IMG/VR virus record: IMGVR_UViG_3300032462_002369
Reading direction: 5' to 3' (one strand)
Source: a virus
DNA length: 64,000 nt
A program made the position numbers and the translations under genes. Positions 41,862-53,460 of the stretch are shown one piece after another. The stretch's first letter is position 1, and every line of letters starts with the position of its first letter. A model generated the notes under the pieces. That model searched no databases and had not been told where the DNA came from. It was given only the letters and a program-made list of their open reading frames with translations.

Positions 41862-41936
41862 GGACTTGTAGGGGAGTCCGGAGTCCCCGCAACCTTGTCA
41901 CGGTTGAGATCGCCGGTTCAAATCCGGTCAAGTCCG
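41862..41936 (+). tRNA. tRNA-Asp(GTC)
   Basis: GGACTTG..GGGG/CCCC D-stem..CAACC TTGTCAC GGTTG..GCCGGTTCAAATCCGGT CAAGTCC. Confidence 0.7.
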
Positions 41937-41966
41937 CTTAAAAAGTTGATAATAATTAAATTTGAA

Positions 41967-42037
41967 TGCGGCCATAATGTAGTGGTAGCCTAACACATTG
42001 CCAATGTGTAAGTGAGGATTCGATTTCCTCTGGCCGC
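41967..42037 (+). tRNA. tRNA-Gly(GCC)
   Basis: GCGGCCA..ACACA TTGCCAA TGTGT..GAGGATTCGATTTCCTC TGGCCGC. Confidence 0.6.
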
Positions 42038-42166
42038 TCTTTAATTGTGATGAAAATCACAATTAAAAAGGAGCAGGGAAATTGCCCTGACACCTTGGAT
42101 GCTATACCTTGGCTGGGCGGCAACCGAAAAATTGTTCATTGACAATTTATTTTAAGTCAAACAAGT

Positions 42167-42265
42167 GCTTTTGTAGTTTAATAGACAAAACAGCAGCCGG
42201 AAGAACTACGTCGAAAGATGAGGGTTCCAAACACTGCAAACCGAGGGTCGCAACCTCGCAAGAGC
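42167..42265 (+). ncRNA. long (~99 nt) tRNA-like RNA, anticodon unresolved (type II or intron-containing?)
   Basis: acceptor GCTTTTG/CAAGAGC, T-arm-like CGAGG GTCGCAA CCTCG. Confidence 0.3.
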
Positions 42266-42296
42266 ACCTTAATTCTATCAACATGTAGCACCTTAT

Positions 42297-42366
42297 GACC
42301 CGATCGTCTACTGGAAGGACACATGGACTTTCAATCCGTGGATACGAGTTCGAATCTCGTTCGGGT
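42297..42366 (+). tRNA. tRNA-Glu(TTC) (weaker)
   Basis: TCGTCTACTGGAAGGAC Glu-type D-arm; ATGGA CTTTCAA TCCGT; ACGAGTTCGAATCTCGT. Confidence 0.45.
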
Positions 42367-42399
42367 TAATTTATTTTGAGTCGTGTTGTTAGAGTTATA

Positions 42400-42470
42400 T
42401 TCTCCTGTAGTGAAATGGTATCACGACTGGCTGTTAACCAGTTATTCCACGTTCGAGCCGTGGTGGGAGA
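42400..42470 (+). tRNA. tRNA-Asn(GTT)
   Basis: TCTCCTG TA GTGAAATGGTATCAC..ACTGG CTGTTAA CCAGT..CCACGTTCGAGCCGTGG TGGGAGA. Confidence 0.65.
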
Positions 42471-42479
42471 GCTTTATAT

Positions 42480-42554
42480 TTCGAAAGGTTCTGTGTTGGC
42501 ACGGAAAGTTGTCTTTGAAGCAACGTGACGAAGGTTCGATTCCTTCTTTCGAAA
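42480..42554 (+). tRNA. tRNA-Gln(TTG)
   Basis: TTCGAAA..GTTGT CTTTGAA GCAAC..GAAGGTTCGATTCCTTC TTTCGAA. Confidence 0.6.
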
Positions 42555-42559
42555 CTTAC

Positions 42560-42632
42560 AGCCCATTCGTCTATCGGTCTAGGACGGCTGATTCTCAGTC
42601 AGCAAAGAGCGGTTCGATTCCGCTATGGGTTA
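42560..42632 (+). tRNA. tRNA-Glu(CTC)
   Basis: AGCCCAT TCGTCTATCGGTCTAGGAC..GCTGA TTCTCAG TCAGC..GCGGTTCGATTCCGC ATGGGTT. Confidence 0.6.
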
Positions 42633-42641
42633 ATTTTAATT

Positions 42642-42712
42642 GCCCCCAAGGTGTTAGGGAAGCATCCGATCTTGGTAAGATCGTGGCGAAGGTTCAACTC
42701 CTTCTGGGGGCT
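42642..42712 (+). tRNA. tRNA-Thr(GGT)
   Basis: GCCCCCA..CGATC TTGGTAA GATCG..GAAGGTTCAACTCCTTC TGGGGGC. Confidence 0.7.
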
Positions 42713-42876
42713 TTATACTCACCATGTGTGAGATATAATCTTCTGTCGTCAGCAATGGCGATAGTTGTTGTTTTCTGGCAAAGCGATTATCTGAAAAGAA
42801 ACATAAAGCAAAACTAGAGTTTTGTTTCGTTTCTCTAGGAGATTGCAACCATCGCCAGCAATGGCGATGGATTTAT

Positions 42877-50856: not shown

Positions 50857-51115
50857 AATGAAAACAAAACTTTTAAAAAATCCGATTGGTTGCATCAAAA
50901 CACAAAATCAAGCTAGAGAATTAGTTCAAAATATGAGGAATGTTTGGGACGACATGTCAAAATACGCAGGACTACATTGCGGCCCTGAGTTAAACAAAGA
51001 GGTCAATCTTGAAAGTGCCAACAAGTTTTTTCAACTTGCTATGTTTGTTGGAATGACTGCATTGTTAGATGAAGGATCAGGTAAAATTTTTGTTGATAGC
51101 ATGGAAGAAGATTGA
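50857..51115 (+). CDS. small hypothetical protein
   Basis: ATG 50857 inside six-frame ORF 50813-51115. Confidence 0.35.
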
Positions 51116-51660
51116 AAATGTTTCCGTTAAAAAATTATGTGATGTCTAAAGCGAAAACTCCCGGAGCATTTGGGTACATCAGAAAGTATGATATTCATAC
51201 TGGTGTTGACATCTACACAACTGAAGGTGCTGAGGTTTTCGCTATTGAAGACGGAAAAGTGTTACAAGTTGATATATTTACTGGTCCAAAAATTGGATTG
51301 GGCTGGTGGAATGAAACTTGGGCTGTTATGATTGAGGGAGAGTCTGGCGTCATTAACTATGGTGAAATCAAGCCTAGTTGTGTTATCGGACAGGAAATCA
51401 AAGTTGGCGATATAATTGGGATAGTAATCCCTGTTTTATCTCCAAATAAGATTCGGTTAGATATTCACGGTCACAGTTGTTCAATGTTACATGTTGAACT
51501 TTACAGACATGGATTTAAAGATTTTGCAATTTGGGATCATGAACAAGAGCAACCAGAAGGTTTGTTAGATCCAACAGAATTGTTAGTCATGCACATGGAT
51601 GATGTATCAATTACTAACGAAGAAGTAAATGCGGAGAGGCGGCGTCGAGAAGTATCGTAG
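51112..51660 (+). CDS. M23 family peptidase (LytM-like)
   Basis: 'IHTGVDIYTTEGAEVFAIEDGKV' (HxxxD) and 'DIHGHSCSMLHVE' (HxH). Confidence 0.6.
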   Translation: MKMFPLKNYVMSKAKTPGAFGYIRKYDIHTGVDIYTTEGAEVFAIEDGKVLQVDIFTGPKIGLGWWNETWAVMIEGESGVINYGEIKPSCVIGQEIKVGDIIGIVIPVLSPNKIRLDIHGHSCSMLHVELYRHGFKDFAIWDHEQEQPEGLLDPTELLVMHMDDVSITNEEVNAERRRREVS

Positions 51661-52038
51661 TAGTGCTGGGCAGAACCAACAAAACATGTTTTGTTGGTTC
51701 CAACGATACTGGTTTCCACTCCAGAGTGGTGTTACAAAATCCAAACGGTTAGCTCCAATTTTTTTGTCGGAAAATCCGACAAAAAAATTGGAGTTTAAAT
51801 TTTTTAGTTCACAGGCTTTTAGTATAACTTCTGGTGTGCCATTAGTCAGACCTTCACGTATCAATCCAATGGAAGGATCATCGAAGAACCATCCATTGCA
51901 TTGATATGGTCTGATGATGAAGCAAGGTTTGTGCATGATCTATTTAGTCGTGTACATGGATGATTCGACAAGTTCGATCTGAAAGGATTTACCACAAGAA
52001 ATATTGTGCTTGACAAGATTTCTTGTGTTTTGAGATAT

Positions 52039-52109
52039 TGCCCCATAGTGTAACGGTAGCACAAAACACTTTGACTGTTTTAGTCCATGTTCGAATCTTG
52101 GTGGGGCAA
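52039..52109 (+). tRNA. tRNA-Gln(TTG)-like second copy
   Basis: TGCCCCA TA GTGTAACGGTAGCAC..AAACA CTTTGAC TGTTT..ATGTTCGAATCTTGG TGGGGCA. Confidence 0.5.
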
Positions 52110-52132
52110 TTTTTAGTAATGAAAAAATTTTT

Positions 52133-52201
52133 ACCCGATAGTATAATGGAAGCACGACTGCCTCTGACGCAGTAAGTCTAGGTTCGAGCCCTAGTTGGGT
52201 A
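52133..52201 (+). tRNA. tRNA-Gln(CTG)
   Basis: ACCCGAT..ACTGC CTCTGAC GCAGT..TAGGTTCGAGCCCTA GTTGGGT. Confidence 0.55.
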
Positions 52202-52222
52202 ACTAGAAAGAGAGAGAAAATC

Positions 52223-52801
52223 TTGTCTGATGAAATTTTGATTCGAGTTAAAGCTAAACACGAAACTGATTATGATGGAAGTGTCATCGAAACACAATTG
52301 ACTCAAGAAATTGTGACATTTGATCAGTTGTTAAAAGAGCAGTCAGACTACGCATTCAAGTGTCGTGGCTATATGTTGATTGATGCCAAGAATAACAAGA
52401 TTGATCAAAAAACAGCCGATTTATTGCGAAGTCATGGTTGGATTCATATTGACACAGCCAAAAGTCGTGAGGAACGTAAAGTTGTCGAACAGGAATACTA
52501 TTTGCTGGATGAAGAAGGCAAGAATAGTTATTATTATGACCCAAAGTTCACCAAGGTAGACATAGACAATCTTACAGAAGACCAATTGAAGCAATTGGCT
52601 AAATCTGGTAAGATTGTTCAAGTGGTGGGACCAAAGAGTGTTTTGCCTGCAACTCAATACAAGAAGTTGCAATCGAAGAGACAGCAACTTGAAGATAAAA
52701 AATTGACGTCTAAGTTGGCTGCCGATAAAAAGGCACAAAAAAAGAAGTTGGCTGAAATTTCAGCAGCTAAGAAGCTGTTGGAAGAAGCTGGAGAAGTATA
52801 G
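52223..52801 (+). CDS. hypothetical protein (Lys/Glu-rich C-terminus)
   Basis: 192 aa, TTG start. Confidence 0.4.
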   Translation: MSDEILIRVKAKHETDYDGSVIETQLTQEIVTFDQLLKEQSDYAFKCRGYMLIDAKNNKIDQKTADLLRSHGWIHIDTAKSREERKVVEQEYYLLDEEGKNSYYYDPKFTKVDIDNLTEDQLKQLAKSGKIVQVVGPKSVLPATQYKKLQSKRQQLEDKKLTSKLAADKKAQKKKLAEISAAKKLLEEAGEV

Positions 52802-53058
52802 ATTTCATGGAGAAATTTGTCATATGGATCAAGATCATCGTGTTTATGTCGTGCTTTTATTTTGGCTGGATTATAACAGATATTGTTAAGCACAATATTC
52901 GTGAAGAGATCAGACAAGAGATCCGTGAAGAAATACGAAAATCTGATAGAGAAATCGTTCCCGTAATGAACTGCGGTAATCGTTGACGCAGGGAGATCAA
53001 CGACGGTGGATGAGCAGCAATATCGCCTTAACTGGTGGAACTGCAAGGCCACAATTAT

Positions 53059-53143
53059 GGCGTTATGACTGAGAGGTCGAAAGTGCCAGACTGCAAATCT
53101 GGAGGAAGAAATTCCCACGTGGGTTCGAATCCCACTGACGCCT
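53059..53143 (+). tRNA. type II (long variable arm) tRNA with GCA anticodon (Cys-like; identity uncertain)
   Basis: GGCGTTA..CCAGA CTGCAAA TCTGG..variable stem GGAA GAAA TTCC..GTGGGTTCGAATCCCAC TGACGCC. Confidence 0.5.
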
Positions 53144-53151
53144 TTTGAATT

Positions 53152-53222
53152 GGGGAATTGGTGTAATGGAGGCATAACTCTCTTCTAAAGAGTTGGAGTA
53201 AGTTCGATTCTTACATTCCCTA
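53152..53222 (+). tRNA. tRNA-Arg(TCT)
   Basis: GGGGAAT..ACTCT CTTCTAA AGAGT..AAGTTCGATTCTTAC ATTCCCT. Confidence 0.65.
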
Positions 53223-53260
53223 TTGTTTTAAATGATTTTTTAGTTCGTGATCAAATTCAC

Positions 53261-53350
53261 AATTCACAATGACAATTGATGACAATTGATGACAATTGAT
53301 GACAATTGATGACAATTGATGACAATTGATGACAATTGATGACAATTGAT
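53261..53350. repeat. 10-bp direct repeat array (GACAATTGAT x8 perfect + degenerate flanking copies), iteron-like
   Basis: 53271-53350 eight exact tandem copies; each contains CAATTG palindrome; period = one helical turn. Confidence 0.85.
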
Positions 53351-53386
53351 AGCATTTGATTTAAAAACTCGTTTATCGTCAAATAT

Positions 53387-53460
53387 AGCCCATTGGTCCA
53401 ATGGTAAGGCGATACCTCGACATGGTATAAAAGCAGGTTCGATTCCTGCATGGGCTACCA
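53387..53460 (+). tRNA. tRNA-Val(GAC) with encoded CCA
   Basis: AGCCCAT..ATACC TCGACAT GGTAT (C33)..CAGGTTCGATTCCTG ATGGGCT A CCA. Confidence 0.6.

What the first reader, a model, noticed from the sequence alone, without database searches (positions are those of the whole stretch)
41862..53460. Very large tRNA island with duplicated isoacceptors and several non-canonical, long or insertion-bearing tRNA-like genes
Seen in sequence: at least 30 cloverleaf tRNAs within about 20 kb. They cover Asp, Gly, Glu x2, Asn x2, Gln x3, Thr x2, Pro x2, Ala, Val x2, Arg x3, Met x2, Trp, Ile x2, Lys, and a type-II tRNA with GCA anticodon.

In addition there are atypical elements:
- a 124-nt tRNA with a ~70-nt insert (48876-48999);
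- tRNA-like RNAs of 99, 90 and 109 nt (42167, 45487, 50147);
- a tRNA with a 9-nt anticodon loop (45864);
- a Val tRNA with C33 and encoded CCA;
- degenerate copies (50403, 50608, 56204).

Standard Leu, Ser, Tyr, His and Phe tRNAs were not recognised. They may be among the unresolved long genes.

Inference: a tRNA complement of this size in a phage-like context suggests codon-usage compensation and possibly supply of tRNAs resistant to host anticodon nucleases.
Basis: partly seen in the sequence, partly recalled or inferred. Interest (0 to 1): 0.5.

Follow-up and report, generated by a model that had tools for sequence, protein, structure and literature searches.

The report
Phage tRNA array hiding Y RNAs
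This stretch of an uncultivated giant-phage genome is a real array of about 30 tRNA genes, but several of its odd "long tRNAs" are small Y RNAs, the likely partners of an RNA-binding Ro60 protein encoded nearby, including one built in tRNA order.

Summary
ARAGORN finds 28 tRNAs on the + strand and Rfam 31 hits. All listed atypical elements exist, and five anticodons are duplicated by divergent copies (52-77% identical).

Corrections:
- tRNA-His is present.
- A tRNA at 40726-41428, just upstream of the finding, is split by a group I intron. The intron carries an I-Ssp6803I-like homing endonuclease. The tRNA is initiator-like Met(CAU), not the Leu(UAA) that ARAGORN calls.
- Leu, Ser, Tyr and a usable Phe tRNA are absent from the window. 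They are not hidden in the long genes.

Main result: the window encodes a Ro60 homologue (27205-28815) and a phage family of Y RNAs, defined by RAUGC-N5-GGGAYUACAUC ... UUGYC.
- This family lies next to Ro60 in at least 9 other phage loci, and 14 of its 15 base pairs covary.
- Four short copies sit directly against tRNA or tRNA-like genes, two beside Ro60 and two inside the island.
- The same layout recurs in a 244-kb relative.
- The "124-nt tRNA with insert" is a YrlA-type Y RNA in tRNA order. Three further copies in two relatives keep an invariant core while the stems covary.

The 99-, 90- and 109-nt elements are non-decoding and unresolved. Ro60 binding is inferred, not shown.

The parts
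40569..40597 (+). Promoter-like site TTGACA-17-TAGAAT (11 of 12 matches), about 130 nt upstream of the first tRNA of the island
   Evidence: a consensus match only
40726..41428 (+). tRNA-Met(CAU), initiator-like (C1xC72 mismatch, A11:U24). Exons are 40726-40759 and 41389-41428, split between U33 and C34.
   Evidence: ARAGORN -i finds the two halves but calls Leu(UAA). The joined exons match the intronless Met at L134 12354-12428, including GGCUCAUAACC.
40760..41388 (+). Group I intron, 629 nt. The catalytic core is at 41171-41369. The guide sequence AUG|GGCUU lies at about 41203-41210. The intron ends in G.
   Evidence: Rfam RF00028, 58.3 bits against gathering 50. P1/P10 pairing was read from the sequence.
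40772..41278 (+). Intron ORF: PD-(D/E)XK homing endonuclease like I-Ssp6803I
   Evidence: Pfam PF11645, 4e-37. PDB 2OST, 1.7e-36. The Synechocystis tRNA-fMet intron carries I-Ssp6803I (PMC1995217).
41862..42712 (+). Seven canonical tRNAs: Asp GUC 41862-41937, Gly GCC 41968-42039, Glu UUC 42296-42369, Asn GUU 42401-42472, Gln UUG 42480-42555, Glu CUC 42560-42632, Thr GGU 42642-42712
42167..42265 (+). 99-nt tRNA-shaped RNA. It has acceptor, D and T arms with an odd T loop (GUCGCAA). A 45-nt extended arm replaces the anticodon arm and contains GAACUACGUC and GUCGAAAG. It cannot decode and its function is unresolved.
   Evidence: Fold. R1 partial hit, 13.9 bits. No homologue found in relatives. 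The same position in L134 holds a tRNA-order Y RNA.
42877..42948 (+). tRNA-Pro(UGG); its 3' end lies 3 nt from the short Y RNA that follows
42951..43033 (+). Short Y RNA (Y3): P1 stem, AAUGC, P2 stem, UACAUC, UUGUC, then a U run
   Evidence: R2 57.4 bits, as a seed; motif; fold
43220..43402 (+). tRNA-Ala UGC 43220-43293 and tRNA-His GUG 43330-43402 (G-1 encoded)
43705..43772 (+). tRNA-like RNA with G33 in a loop reading CGAGUAG. It directly precedes Y4.
   Evidence: Rfam 30.6 bits, R1 42.5 bits; fold
43777..43843 (+). Short Y RNA (Y4), ending 7 nt before tRNA-Val
   Evidence: R2 61 bits, as a seed. Rfam YrlB 37.2 bits, E 3e-4, below the gathering score of 97.
43850..44029 (+). tRNA-Val UAC 43850-43922 and tRNA-Thr UGU 43957-44029
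45223..45838 (+). tRNAs Arg UCG 45223-45294, Pro UGG 45389-45461, Met CAU 45613-45684, Trp CCA 45768-45838
45485..45576 (+). 90-nt tRNA-like RNA. It has a T arm, a 6/7 acceptor, a hairpin with loop UUUAAUC (U37) and a 9-bp extra arm. No D arm forms. Unresolved.
   Evidence: no homologue found
45864..45933 (+). tRNA-like RNA with a 9-nt anticodon loop (CUUUUGAUA) and C54 in the T loop
   Evidence: Rfam 34.2 bits; R1 42.9 bits with alignment
48022..48285 (+). tRNA-Ile GAU 48022-48092; tRNA-Ile UAU 48099-48170 (missed by ARAGORN and Rfam); tRNA-Arg ACG 48213-48285 with an odd D arm
   Evidence: The Arg ACG homologue at L133 3214-3284 keeps ACG, with compensatory changes in the anticodon stem.
48499..48572 (+). 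tRNA-Gly UCC
48876..48999 (+). Y RNA in tRNA order, a circular permutation of the YrlA layout. [quoted passage not shown] The anticodon arm is replaced by the Y module: AAAUAGACUUUUC (P2 3' strand), CUUGUCC-UUAAUU-GGAAU (P1 closed by a loop), UUUUCGAAAGGUU (P2 5' strand), UACAUC.
   Evidence: Rfam tRNA 47.8 bits with a 64-nt insert. The permuted sequence aligns collinearly with 9 YrlA-type units. There are two copies in L133 and one in L134, with an invariant core and covarying stems.
50063..50134 (+). tRNA-Asn GUU, second copy, 53% identical to the first
50147..50255 (+). 109-nt tRNA-like RNA. It has a Leu-like D arm with an 18-nt hairpin inserted, an anticodon stem closed by the 4-nt loop CUAA, and a 6-bp variable arm. 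It cannot decode and is absent from L133.
50306..50508 (+). Conserved RNA of about 200 nt. It contains AUUGC-UUUU-AGGGAUUACACC, a tRNA-like D / anticodon (GAA) / T domain without acceptor pairing (50403-50471; 8-nt loop here, 7-nt in the relatives), then AUCUCU and CCUUGUGC. It may be a Y RNA with the Yrn1-type domain order.
   Evidence: 79% mean column identity with long invariant runs across three phages; L134 17700-17835
50581..50660 (+). Degenerate Lys(UUU)-like copy: anticodon and T arms only, with no D arm or acceptor
   Evidence: L133 has a full second Lys UUU at this position.
50665..50737 (+). tRNA-Lys UUU
52038..52203 (+). tRNA-Gln UUG 52038-52110 and tRNA-Gln CUG 52132-52203, with a promoter-like site at 52010-52039
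53059..53143 (+). 85-nt type-II-shaped tRNA with anticodon GCA and discriminator U73 (Cys identity marks). It has a 3-bp D stem and a 4-bp variable arm.
   Evidence: ARAGORN and Rfam 61.7 bits; fold. L133 10503-10581 keeps CUGCAAA and U73 in a differently shaped body.
53151..53460 (+). tRNA-Arg UCU 53151-53223 and tRNA-Val GAC 53387-53460 (C33, encoded CCA)
55677..55751 (+). tRNA-Met CAU, third CAU tRNA
56194..56268 (+). Degenerate tRNA-like copy with a 6-nt loop and poor acceptor pairing
61582..61655 (+). tRNA-Arg UCU, second copy
27205..28815 (+). Ro60 (Rsr) homologue, the presumed protein partner of the Y RNAs
   Evidence: Pfam TROVE 41.6 bits and vWA_Ro60 38.4 bits. Best PDB match is the Thermus phage phiLo Ro60, 9L5Y/9KOP, 6e-23.
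28963..29385 (+). ncRNA cluster directly after Ro60, in this order: tRNA-like 28963-29070 (41-nt D-loop insert, 3-nt 'anticodon' loop); short Y RNA 29075-29138; tRNA-like 29148-29218 (6-nt loop); short Y RNA 29221-29285; tRNA-like about 29289-29385 with a CGAA-containing arm.
   Evidence: All are conserved with compensatory changes in L134 1-800.
63766..63884 (+). Possible fifth Y RNA. It has the exact motif GAAUGCAGGAGGGACUACAUC and a 74-nt apical part, and it overlaps the end of an ORF.
   Evidence: R2 15.3 bits, E 0.04, not a seed; motif

Best explanation
The region from about 40.7 to 61.7 kb is a co-oriented tRNA array of an uncultivated jumbo-type phage. It carries two kinds of product.

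(1) About 29 genuine decoding tRNAs. They cover 16 amino acids plus an initiator-like Met, whose gene is split between U33 and C34 by a self-splicing group I intron. That intron carries an I-Ssp6803I-like homing endonuclease. These tRNAs read the A- and U-ending codons the phage prefers.

(2) tRNA-derived RNAs that cannot decode. At least five of these, and probably six or seven, are Y RNAs. They belong to a phage family that accompanies a phage-encoded Ro60 protein (27205-28815). The short Y RNAs are wedged between tRNA or tRNA-like genes. The enzymes that trim tRNAs (RNase P at the downstream tRNA, 3'-end processing at the upstream one) would therefore release them from the array transcript. 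The '124-nt tRNA with an insert' is a Y RNA of the tRNA-mimic (YrlA) type, written in tRNA order. Its two ends form an acceptor stem, and its anticodon arm is the conserved Y module that presumably binds Ro60.

The Ro60/Y RNA particles would then tether Ro60 to a host RNA-handling enzyme, as shown for other Ro60/Y RNA pairs.

Shown here: the sequence family, its covariation, its linkage to Ro60 genes and its placement between tRNAs.
Inferred: transcription as an array, processing, Ro60 binding and downstream function.

The remaining odd elements (42167, 45485, 50147, 43705, 45864, 50581, 56194) are tRNA-like RNAs without a usable anticodon loop. Most have no counterpart in relatives. They are either decaying copies or processing signals.
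For: tRNA set.

Intron-split tRNA:
- RF00028 scores 58.3 bits.
- The endonuclease matches Pfam at 4e-37 and PDB 2OST at 1.7e-36.
- The intronless homologue in L134 fixes the exon junction as GGCU|CAUAACC.
- The guide sequence AUG|GGCUU gives contiguous P10 and P1 pairing.

Ro60.

Y RNA family:
- The motif occurs at 29080, 42956 and 63770 (exact), and with one extra spacer base at 29228 and 43784.
- Of about 120 viral loci hit by the 14-base motif, 8 carry a Ro60 homologue next to it. These have 2 to 7 tandem copies each. L004 is a ninth such locus.
- In the alignment of 18 short units, 93.5% of cells are paired and 14 of 15 pairs show compensatory changes. No shuffle out of 500 reaches this. 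The covariation score is 0.742, against at most 0.164 when partners are slid.

Placement between tRNAs:
- In the window: Pro|Y3; tRNA-like|Y4|Val; tRNA-like|Y1|tRNA-like|Y2|tRNA-like.
- In L134, hits that were not seeds score 53.6-59.9 bits: His|Y|Val, Pro(CGG)|Y|Met, and tRNA-like|Y|tRNA-like.

tRNA-order Y RNA:
- The permuted 48876-48999 aligns collinearly with 9 YrlA-type units through all conserved blocks.
- RNAalifold recovers P1, P2, T, acceptor-like and D helices, with 22 of 29 pairs compensated.
- Three more copies (L133 3614-3735, L133 3820-3945, L134 about 14650-14770) keep CTTGTCCTTAATTGGAAT invariant. Their acceptor, D, T and P2 stems differ by compensatory changes. Proteins of these phages are only 54-69% identical.

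Literature:
- Phage Ro60 with Y-like RNAs binds host PNPase in vitro (PMC12135203).
- YrlA resembles a circularly permuted tRNA, and M. smegmatis YrlA is cut by RNase P and receives CCA (PMC4201824 and bioRxiv 10.1101/312249).
Against: - No expression, processing or binding data exist for any of these RNAs.
- The family fails Rfam's own thresholds: YrlB 37.2 bits against 97, and YrlA 17.7 bits against 69.
- The family lacks the published GNCGAAN0-1G Ro60-site motif, except in the 29289-29385 element and its L134 homologue. The claim that the AUGC...GGGAYUACAUC...UUGYC module is the Ro60 site therefore rests on gene linkage alone.
- Only four tRNA-order copies from three related phages are known, so their covariation counts are small.
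- An exact scan for the core in IMG/VR found only chance coding matches.
- The short-Y model does not hit 42167, 45485, 50147 or the three tRNA-like elements beside Ro60.
- The Y RNAs inside the island lie 14-20 kb from the Ro60 gene.
Confidence: 0.7

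Rival explanations
1. All atypical elements, including the 124-nt one and the short modules, are decaying tRNA pseudogenes and spacer debris left by duplication in a fast-evolving array. 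They have no function.
For: Several elements do look like decay. 50581-50660 has lost its D arm and acceptor, while L133 keeps a full Lys UUU at that position. 56194 has poor acceptor pairing. 42167, 45485 and 50147 have no homologue in relatives.
Against: The short modules and the 124-nt element are conserved across phages whose proteins are only 54-69% identical. Their cores are invariant and their stems carry compensatory changes. The same motif sits beside Ro60 genes in unrelated phage contigs.
Confidence: 0.1
2. The long elements are the missing type-II tRNAs (Leu, Ser, Tyr) or intron-bearing tRNAs, so the phage carries a nearly complete decoding set.
For: 45485-45576 has a hairpin loop containing UAA. 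50147-50255 has a Leu-like D arm and a long variable arm.
Against: - The ARAGORN 'intron' is the invariant Y core shared with three copies whose bodies differ.
- No bacterial mechanism removes such inserts.
- 45485 has U37 and no D arm.
- 50147 has a 4-nt loop and is absent from L133.
- The window is only part of a genome whose relatives are 244-331 kb, so the missing tRNAs may simply lie elsewhere.
Confidence: 0.04
3. The non-decoding tRNA-like RNAs and the divergent duplicate isoacceptors are counter-defence devices. They act as decoys or as cleavage-resistant substitutes against host anticodon nucleases and other tRNA-targeting immunity.
For: - Duplicates with the same anticodon are only 52-77% identical.
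- Unusual bodies carry normal anticodons. In the window this is Cys GCA in a type-II shape. In relatives it is a 90-nt Asn GUU and an 82-nt Lys CUU.
- Lys and Asn tRNAs are known nuclease targets. This last point rests on my own knowledge and was not checked here.
Against: Nothing in the window tests this, and no nuclease or host is known. The idea does not explain the link to Ro60 or the conserved non-tRNA core. It could be true of the decoders alongside the main explanation.
Confidence: 0.12
4. The tRNA-like elements serve only as RNase P / RNase Z punctuation for processing the long transcript. The conserved modules between them are regulatory RNAs or leaders unrelated to Ro60.
For: The modules abut tRNA or tRNA-like genes at both ends. 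The island modules lie 14-20 kb from Ro60.
Against: In 9 other phage loci the same motif sits within about 1 kb of Ro60, often in several tandem copies. Many of those copies enclose a T arm, closed acceptor and D arm exactly as in YrlA.
Confidence: 0.06

Closest known systems
Bacterial and phage YrlA/YrlB Y RNAs bound by Ro60 (Rsr): Chen et al. 2014, PMC4201824; Thermus phage phiLo Ro60 with Yrl1/Yrl2, PMC12135203
   Same: They are encoded with a Ro60 homologue. They have a terminal stem, an internal loop and a second stem. The long members enclose a tRNA-like T arm, closed acceptor and D arm. Short members without a full tRNA domain also exist, like YrlB. Several copies occur per locus.
   Different: - A different conserved module (RAUGC-N5-GGGAYUACAUC ... 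UUGYC) takes the place of GNCGAAN0-1G.
- Scores fall below the Rfam gathering scores.
- Copies sit inside a tRNA array up to 20 kb from Ro60, butted against tRNA genes. The 2014 survey excluded exactly that situation, by discarding hits that overlapped tandem tRNAs or lay more than 4 kb from Ro60.
- One type is written in tRNA order, with open acceptor ends and a closed Ro60-side stem.
Large tRNA arrays of jumbo phages (for example Xanthomonas phage XacN1 with 56 tRNA genes, PMC5852040)
   Same: Dozens of co-oriented, tightly spaced tRNA genes with duplicated isoacceptors in a very large phage genome.
   Different: Here the array also carries Y RNAs, an intron-split initiator-like tRNA and many non-decoding tRNA-like genes. 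All type-II families (Leu, Ser, Tyr) are missing from the 64-kb window.
Synechocystis PCC 6803 tRNA-fMet group I intron encoding I-Ssp6803I (PMC1995217)
   Same: A group I intron in the anticodon loop of a CAU tRNA with initiator marks. Sizes are similar (629 nt against 655 nt). It encodes a PD-(D/E)XK endonuclease (PDB 2OST, 1.7e-36).
   Different: It is found in a phage tRNA array. The tRNA has C1xC72 rather than C1xA72, and only two of the three G:C pairs of the initiator anticodon stem. I did not verify the insertion position in Synechocystis from a paper.
Deinococcus radiodurans Yrn1-type Y RNA
   Same: The element at 50306-50508 has its D, anticodon-like and T arms in tRNA order inside a frame of Y-like motifs. 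It has no acceptor pairing, as described for Yrn1.
   Different: The assignment rests on three sequences with almost no variation, so the stems are untested.

Membership tests
tRNA (Rfam RF00005), for the 124-nt element 48876-48999 | Cloverleaf scoring above the gathering score | tested here: met
   47.8 bits against 29. U8, A14, G18G19 and the T loop UUCAAAU are present.
tRNA (Rfam RF00005), for the 124-nt element 48876-48999 | 5-bp anticodon stem with a 7-nt loop (U33, purine 37) presenting an anticodon conserved among homologues | tested here: not met
   The arm is replaced by 64 nt. That stretch is the invariant Y core in all four copies. ARAGORN's 'Phe AAA plus intron' reading is rejected.
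Y RNA of the YrlA/YrlB kind | Encoded next to a Ro60 (TROVE) gene | tested here: met
   Two copies lie 260-470 nt after the window's Ro60 gene. The same motif lies within about 1 kb of Ro60 in L004, L038, L044, L057, L075, L086, L112, L128 and L131.
Y RNA of the YrlA/YrlB kind | Terminal stem formed by the 5' and 3' ends, an internal loop, and a second stem, all supported by covariation | tested here: met
   P1 has 7 bp and P2 has 8 bp. 93.5% of cells are paired and 14 of 15 pairs are compensated. No shuffle out of 500 reaches this.
Y RNA of the YrlA/YrlB kind | tRNA-like domain with a T arm, closed acceptor-like stem and D arm (YrlA) | tested here: met
   Present in 9 long units from other phages. 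Present in 48876-48999 after circular permutation. Absent from the four short window copies, as in YrlB.
Y RNA of the YrlA/YrlB kind | Conserved GNCGAAN0-1G motif in the 5' strand of the Ro60-binding helix | tested here: not met
   The family has RAUGC and GGGAYUACAUC instead. GACGAAAG occurs only in the L134 homologue of 29289-29385, where the window has CACGAAAA.
Y RNA of the YrlA/YrlB kind | Reaches the Rfam gathering score of RF02553 or RF02565 | tested here: not met
   YrlB 37.2 bits against 97. YrlA 17.7 bits against 69.
Y RNA of the YrlA/YrlB kind | Physically bound by Ro60 | not testable with these tools
   Needs RIP-seq or EMSA.
Group I intron with homing endonuclease in a tRNA anticodon loop | Catalytic core recognised; 5' exon ends in U; intron ends in G; the guide sequence pairs with both exons | tested here: met
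   RF00028 58.3 bits against 50. The junction reads ...GGCU|uaaagg...guaguaaG|CAUAACC. AUG|GGCUU pairs with CAU and AGGCU. The intronless L134 gene confirms the junction.
Bacterial initiator tRNA | 1:72 mismatch, A11:U24, and three consecutive G:C pairs closing the anticodon stem | tested here: inconclusive
   C1xC72 and A11:U24 are present in the window gene and in both L134 copies. Only G30:C40 and G31:C39 are present, and pair 29:41 is A:U.
tRNA-Cys, for 53059-53143 | GCA anticodon and U73 discriminator in a class I body (short variable loop) | tested here: not met
   GCA and U73 are present and are conserved in L133. The body, however, is type-II-like, with a 4-bp variable arm and a 3-bp D stem.

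The most novel reading that the evidence does not exclude
This jumbo-phage lineage builds a vault-like or Ro-like RNA-protein particle of its own. A TROVE/Ro60 protein and a major-vault-protein homologue flank a cluster of tRNA-like and Y RNAs. Further Y RNAs are made from the tRNA array. [quoted passage not shown] That form would be a living intermediate between tRNAs and Y RNAs, and a direct line from the tRNA machinery to Ro60.
Probability: 0.2. Interest if true: 0.85.

Novelty: new variant of a known kind. Interest (0 to 1): 0.6.

Why it matters
Phage tRNA islands are usually read only as codon-supply devices. Automatic annotation files anything tRNA-shaped as a tRNA or a pseudo-tRNA.

Part of this island is something else. 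It is a set of Y RNAs for a phage Ro60 protein, placed so that tRNA-processing enzymes would cut them out.

The published survey of bacterial and phage Y RNAs deliberately discarded candidates that overlapped tandem tRNA genes or lay more than 4 kb from Ro60. This class would therefore have been missed.

The tRNA-order Y RNA bears on the proposal that YrlA arose from tRNAs. It gives a concrete RNA with which to ask whether a Y RNA can be processed, given CCA or even charged like a tRNA.

The motif and the two covariance models can be used to re-annotate 'pseudo-tRNAs' in other large phages.

Tried and rejected
Searches that found nothing useful:
- Megablast of 41000-54000, and tblastn of the 1158-aa protein, against 50,697 GenBank phages gave no match.
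- The island's glycosyltransferase has no relative in IMG/VR. It has only one relative in the metagenome collection, L133.
- Exact look-up returned only the source contig (JGI 3300027983, identical) and a 99.87% identical strain. Neither is useful for covariation.
- An exact scan for the tRNA-order core CTTGTCCTTAATTGGAAT in IMG/VR gave four hits, all chance matches inside coding sequence.
- Blastn of 42167, 43705, 45485, 45864 and 50147 against the syntenic relatives found nothing.
- PMC3008403, on I-Ssp6803I specificity, is not held. The insertion position in Synechocystis is therefore not confirmed from a paper.

Tool calls I rejected:
- ARAGORN's Leu(UAA) for the intron-split tRNA. Its splice points leave an A before and a U at the end of the intron. 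The intronless homologue reads CAU.
- The other ARAGORN -i calls (SeC, Thr, Tyr, Tyr). They join halves of neighbouring tRNAs and are artefacts.
- Low-threshold ARAGORN hits inside ORFs (3703, 6558, 38857, 56987). I treated these as false.
- The Rfam alignment of the intron's P1 to 41175-41200. The true 5' strand is 430 nt upstream, with the ORF sitting in the P1 loop.

Ideas that did not hold:
- The short-Y model (R2) does not detect 42167, 45485, 50147 or the three tRNA-like elements beside Ro60.
- GNCGAA-like hexamers in 42167 and 50147 are no more than chance would give. I did not use them as evidence.

Full report
**1. What the window is**

The window is identical to part of a 74.5-kb JGI metagenome contig (3300027983, Ga0209284_10000362). 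It is 99.87% identical to an ENA contig of 96 kb. It has no near or protein-level match among 50,697 deposited phages. It does carry a PhoH-like gene and other PHROG families. Its gene order is shared with ENA contigs of 244 and 331 kb. I therefore treat it as a fragment of an uncultivated jumbo-type phage. GC content is 32-46%. Genes and RNAs are almost all on the + strand.

**2. The observation**

ARAGORN reports 28 tRNA genes between 41862 and 61655. Rfam reports 30 tRNA hits and one group I intron at gathering score.

I built a covariance model from 25 of the window's own tRNAs (R1) and ran it without filters. It recovers all of these. It also adds 48099-48170, a clean cloverleaf with anticodon UAU (Ile), and 48213-48285 (anticodon ACG).

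- 48876-48999 has 64 nt in place of the anticodon arm.
- 42167-42265 and 50147-50255 fold as cloverleaves without a 7-nt anticodon loop.
- 45864-45933 has a 9-nt loop.
- Val(GAC) has C33 and an encoded CCA.
- 50403, 50581-50660 and 56194 are degenerate.

Five anticodons are duplicated. The copies are only 52-77% identical, so they are not recent tandem duplicates.

- His(GUG) is present, with an encoded G-1.
- There is a second Gly (UCC).
- Leu, Ser, Tyr and a usable Phe tRNA are truly missing from the window.

**3. An intron-split tRNA just upstream of the finding**

Rfam finds a group I intron core at 41171-41369 (58.3 bits). ARAGORN with introns allowed joins two tRNA halves at 40726 and 41429 and calls Leu(UAA). 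That call is wrong, for four reasons:
- It puts an A before the 5' splice site and a U at the end of the intron.
- The tRNA has no long variable arm.
- Group I rules (exon ending in U, intron ending in G) place the splice sites at GGCU|uaaagg ... guaguaaG|CAUAACC. This gives the loop CUCAUAA.
- The sequence AUG|GGCUU at about 41203-41210, just before the core, pairs contiguously with the 3' exon (CAU) and the 5' exon (AGGCU). It acts as a P10/P1 guide.

The decisive evidence is the 244-kb relative. It has two intronless genes at the head of its island. The first (L134 12354-12428) reads CGUGGAG...GCAAGGCUCAUAACCUUGAG...CUCCACCA. That is the window's exons joined at exactly this point.

The tRNA has a C1xC72 mismatch and A11:U24, which are initiator marks. 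It has only two of the three G:C pairs of the initiator anticodon stem.

The intron ORF (40772-41278) is a PD-(D/E)XK endonuclease (Pfam 4e-37; PDB 2OST 1.7e-36). This is the family of I-Ssp6803I, which is encoded in the 655-nt intron of Synechocystis tRNA-fMet (PMC1995217).

**4. A Ro60 gene and a Y RNA family**

ORF 27205-28815 is a Ro60 homologue with TROVE and Ro60-type vWA domains. Its best solved relative is the Ro60 of Thermus phage phiLo.

Directly after it lie three tRNA-like elements, separated by two modules of about 65 nt. Those modules share the motif GAAUGC-N5-GGAYUACAUC and a 3' UUGUC with two modules inside the tRNA island (42951-43033 and 43777-43843). The motif also occurs at 63770. 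Rfam gives weak YrlA and YrlB hits there (17.7 and 37.2 bits), both far below the gathering scores.

Evidence that the motif goes with Ro60:
- In a phage contig whose Ro60 is 42% identical (L004), the same motif occurs three times directly after the Ro60 gene. The first unit encloses a T arm, a closed acceptor-like stem and a D arm. This is the published YrlA layout (PMC4201824).
- A scan of IMG/VR for ATGC-N5-GGGAYTACATC returned about 120 loci. Most are expected by chance for 14 fixed bases.
- Eight of those loci carry a Ro60 homologue beside the motif, with two to seven tandem units each.

An alignment of 18 short units (A4) supports two helices. 93.5% of cells are paired and 14 of 15 pairs have compensatory changes. 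No shuffle out of 500 reaches the observed values. The covariation score is 0.742, against at most 0.164 when partners are slid.

This is therefore a real, structured RNA family genetically tied to phage Ro60. It has the Y RNA architecture, but a different conserved module from the published GNCGAAN0-1G.

**5. Y RNAs wedged between tRNAs**

In the window each short unit starts 2-5 nt after the 3' end of a tRNA or tRNA-like gene:
- Pro UGG, then Y3.
- The G33 tRNA-like 43705-43772, then Y4.
- 28963-29070, then Y1.
- 29148-29218, then Y2.

Y1, Y2 and Y4 end a few bases, or a short U run, before the next tRNA or tRNA-like gene; Y3 ends in a U run.

The model built from the short units (R2) then found three units in the 244-kb relative that were not used to build it, at 53.6-59.9 bits:
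- Between His and Val.
- Between Pro(CGG) and Met.
- Between the homologues of the two tRNA-like genes upstream of the MVP-like gene (Ro60 itself lies outside the stretch fetched for this relative).

The arrangement is thus conserved between phages whose proteins are about 54% identical. A near-consensus promoter precedes the island (40569-40597). Strong + strand terminators are few.

My inference is that the array is transcribed in long units, and that RNase P and the tRNA 3'-end enzymes release the Y RNAs. This step is not shown.

**6. The '124-nt tRNA with an insert'**

The insert of 48876-48999 contains CUUGUCC-UUAAUU-GGAAU, then UUUUCGAAAGGUU, then UACAUC. That is the 3' motif, the terminal stem closed by a loop, the 5' motif, the P2 strand and the UACAUC box. 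After the D arm it also contains AAAAUAGACUUUUC, the usual P2 3' strand.

I started the sequence at GGAAU and joined the natural ends. The element then aligns collinearly with nine YrlA-type units from other phages through every conserved block. RNAalifold returns P1, P2, T, acceptor-like and D helices, with 22 of 29 pairs compensated. It is therefore a YrlA-type Y RNA written in tRNA order.

A metagenome relative whose glycosyltransferase is 69% identical (L133) has two such genes (3614-3735 and 3820-3945). The 244-kb relative has one (about 14650-14770). In the four copies:
- CTTGTCCTTAATTGGAAT is invariant, and the surrounding core is nearly so.
- The acceptor stem reads TGCGATG/CGTCGCA, TGGAACG/CGTTCCA, TGGCAGG/CCTGCCG and CAGTGGG/CCCACTG.
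- The T stems and P2 covary in all four copies, and the D stems in the three copies where a D arm is clear.

The literature already notes two relevant points. YrlA looks like a circularly permuted tRNA. M. smegmatis YrlA is opened by RNase P and receives CCA. A gene that encodes the opened, tRNA-ended form directly was not found in the papers I could search.

**7. The other odd elements**

*Real tRNAs with unusual bodies*
- 48213-48285 is a real tRNA-Arg(ACG) with an unusual D arm. L133 keeps the ACG loop and has compensatory changes in the anticodon stem.
- 53059-53143 has GCA, U73 and a type-II body. L133 keeps CUGCAAA and U73 in a differently shaped body. A Cys decoder with a non-standard shape is the likely reading.

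*Conserved non-decoding RNAs*
- 50403-50471 is the tRNA-like core of a roughly 200-nt element (50306-50508). It is 79% identical column-wise across three phages, with long invariant runs. It has AUUGC-UUUU-AGGGAUUACACC upstream and AUCUCU...CCUUGUGC downstream.
- Its D, anticodon (GAA) and T arms are in tRNA order, with no acceptor pairing. This recalls the Yrn1 type of Y RNA. The stems do not vary, so this is only a suggestion.
- The three tRNA-like elements beside Ro60 are conserved in L134, with compensatory changes and no conserved anticodon. The third carries GACGAAAG there, the published Ro60-site motif.

*Unresolved or decaying*
- 42167, 43705, 45485, 45864 and 50147 have no detectable homologue in the relatives.
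- 50147 is absent from L133.
- These are non-decoding, and I could not resolve them further. 50581-50660 and 56194 look like decay.

**8. Codons**

I took 63 non-overlapping ORFs (16,227 codons). The decoders match the preferred A-ending codons and, through G34, the C/U-ending pairs. Leu, Ser, Tyr and Phe make up 23% of codons and have no usable tRNA in the window. Stop-codon use is ordinary, and no suppressor tRNA is present. With the host unknown, compensation remains untested.

**9. Verdict**

The island is real and large, which is ordinary for a jumbo phage. The island also carries Y RNAs of a Ro60-linked family, one type in tRNA order, together with an intron-split initiator-like tRNA. 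Phage Ro60 and Y-like RNAs are known. The embedding in the tRNA array, the new conserved module and the tRNA-order form are a new variant of that kind. Binding to Ro60 and processing are inferred.

Noticed in passing
window 27205-32244; L134 1-4163; L136 1-4163: The Ro60 gene, the cluster of tRNA-like and Y RNAs, and an 887-aa protein with major-vault-protein shoulder and repeat domains (29581-32244) lie side by side. L134 and L136 show the same RNA cluster next to an MVP-like gene. The combination of a TROVE protein, small RNAs and MVP recalls the eukaryotic vault. The one preprint on phage MVPs that I found does not mention Ro60 or tRNAs. No MVP was found beside Ro60 in the other 16 Ro60-bearing loci.
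   Followed up: partly
L133 4895-4984 and 5372-5453; L134 14896-14985 and 17834-17916: The relatives carry tRNAs with class I anticodons in long-variable-arm bodies: Asn GUU at 90 nt and Lys CUU at 82-83 nt. This parallels the type-II-shaped GCA tRNA of the window. It looks like a recurrent trait of this phage lineage.
   Followed up: no
window 53257-53345: About nine tandem copies of the 10-nt unit TGACAATTGA lie between tRNA-Arg and tRNA-Val. The alignment with the 99.87% identical strain L009 breaks here, which suggests a copy-number difference.
   Followed up: no
window 44061-45011: A 316-aa ORF inside the island consists mostly of about eight 69-nt (23-aa) tandem repeats (consensus roughly SQWAYYWAREIGNKEVMIDRVTE) after a DUF7666-like N-terminus.
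   Followed up: no
window 32480-36205 and 15304-16275: There is a ThiF (E1-like) gene, weak JAB-peptidase and prokaryotic-E2 matches (below Pfam cut-offs), and separately an amidoligase. Together they suggest a ubiquitin-like conjugation module, and the ThiF gene and its neighbours keep the same order in L134 and L137.
   Followed up: no
window 316-2907: A LAGLIDADG endonuclease ORF (316-1704) is followed by a TnpB/IS605 OrfB-type gene (1732-2907). These are mobile-element genes at the start of the window.
   Followed up: no
window 38330-38440 and 32228-32286: There are isolated T-arm-like hits (R1 11.7-15.6 bits) outside the island. One lies just after the MVP-like gene. They may be further tRNA-derived fragments.
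   Followed up: no
window 38706-40346 (- strand): This 546-aa ORF contains an internal repeat of about 120 nt. Strain L009 encodes a 506-aa version. This region is the most divergent between the two strains, at 97.3% identity.
   Followed up: no
window 51751-51795: A perfect 20-bp hairpin followed by a T run is the only strong + strand terminator-like site inside the island. It probably divides the island into at least two transcription units. A promoter-like site follows at 52010-52039.
   Followed up: no
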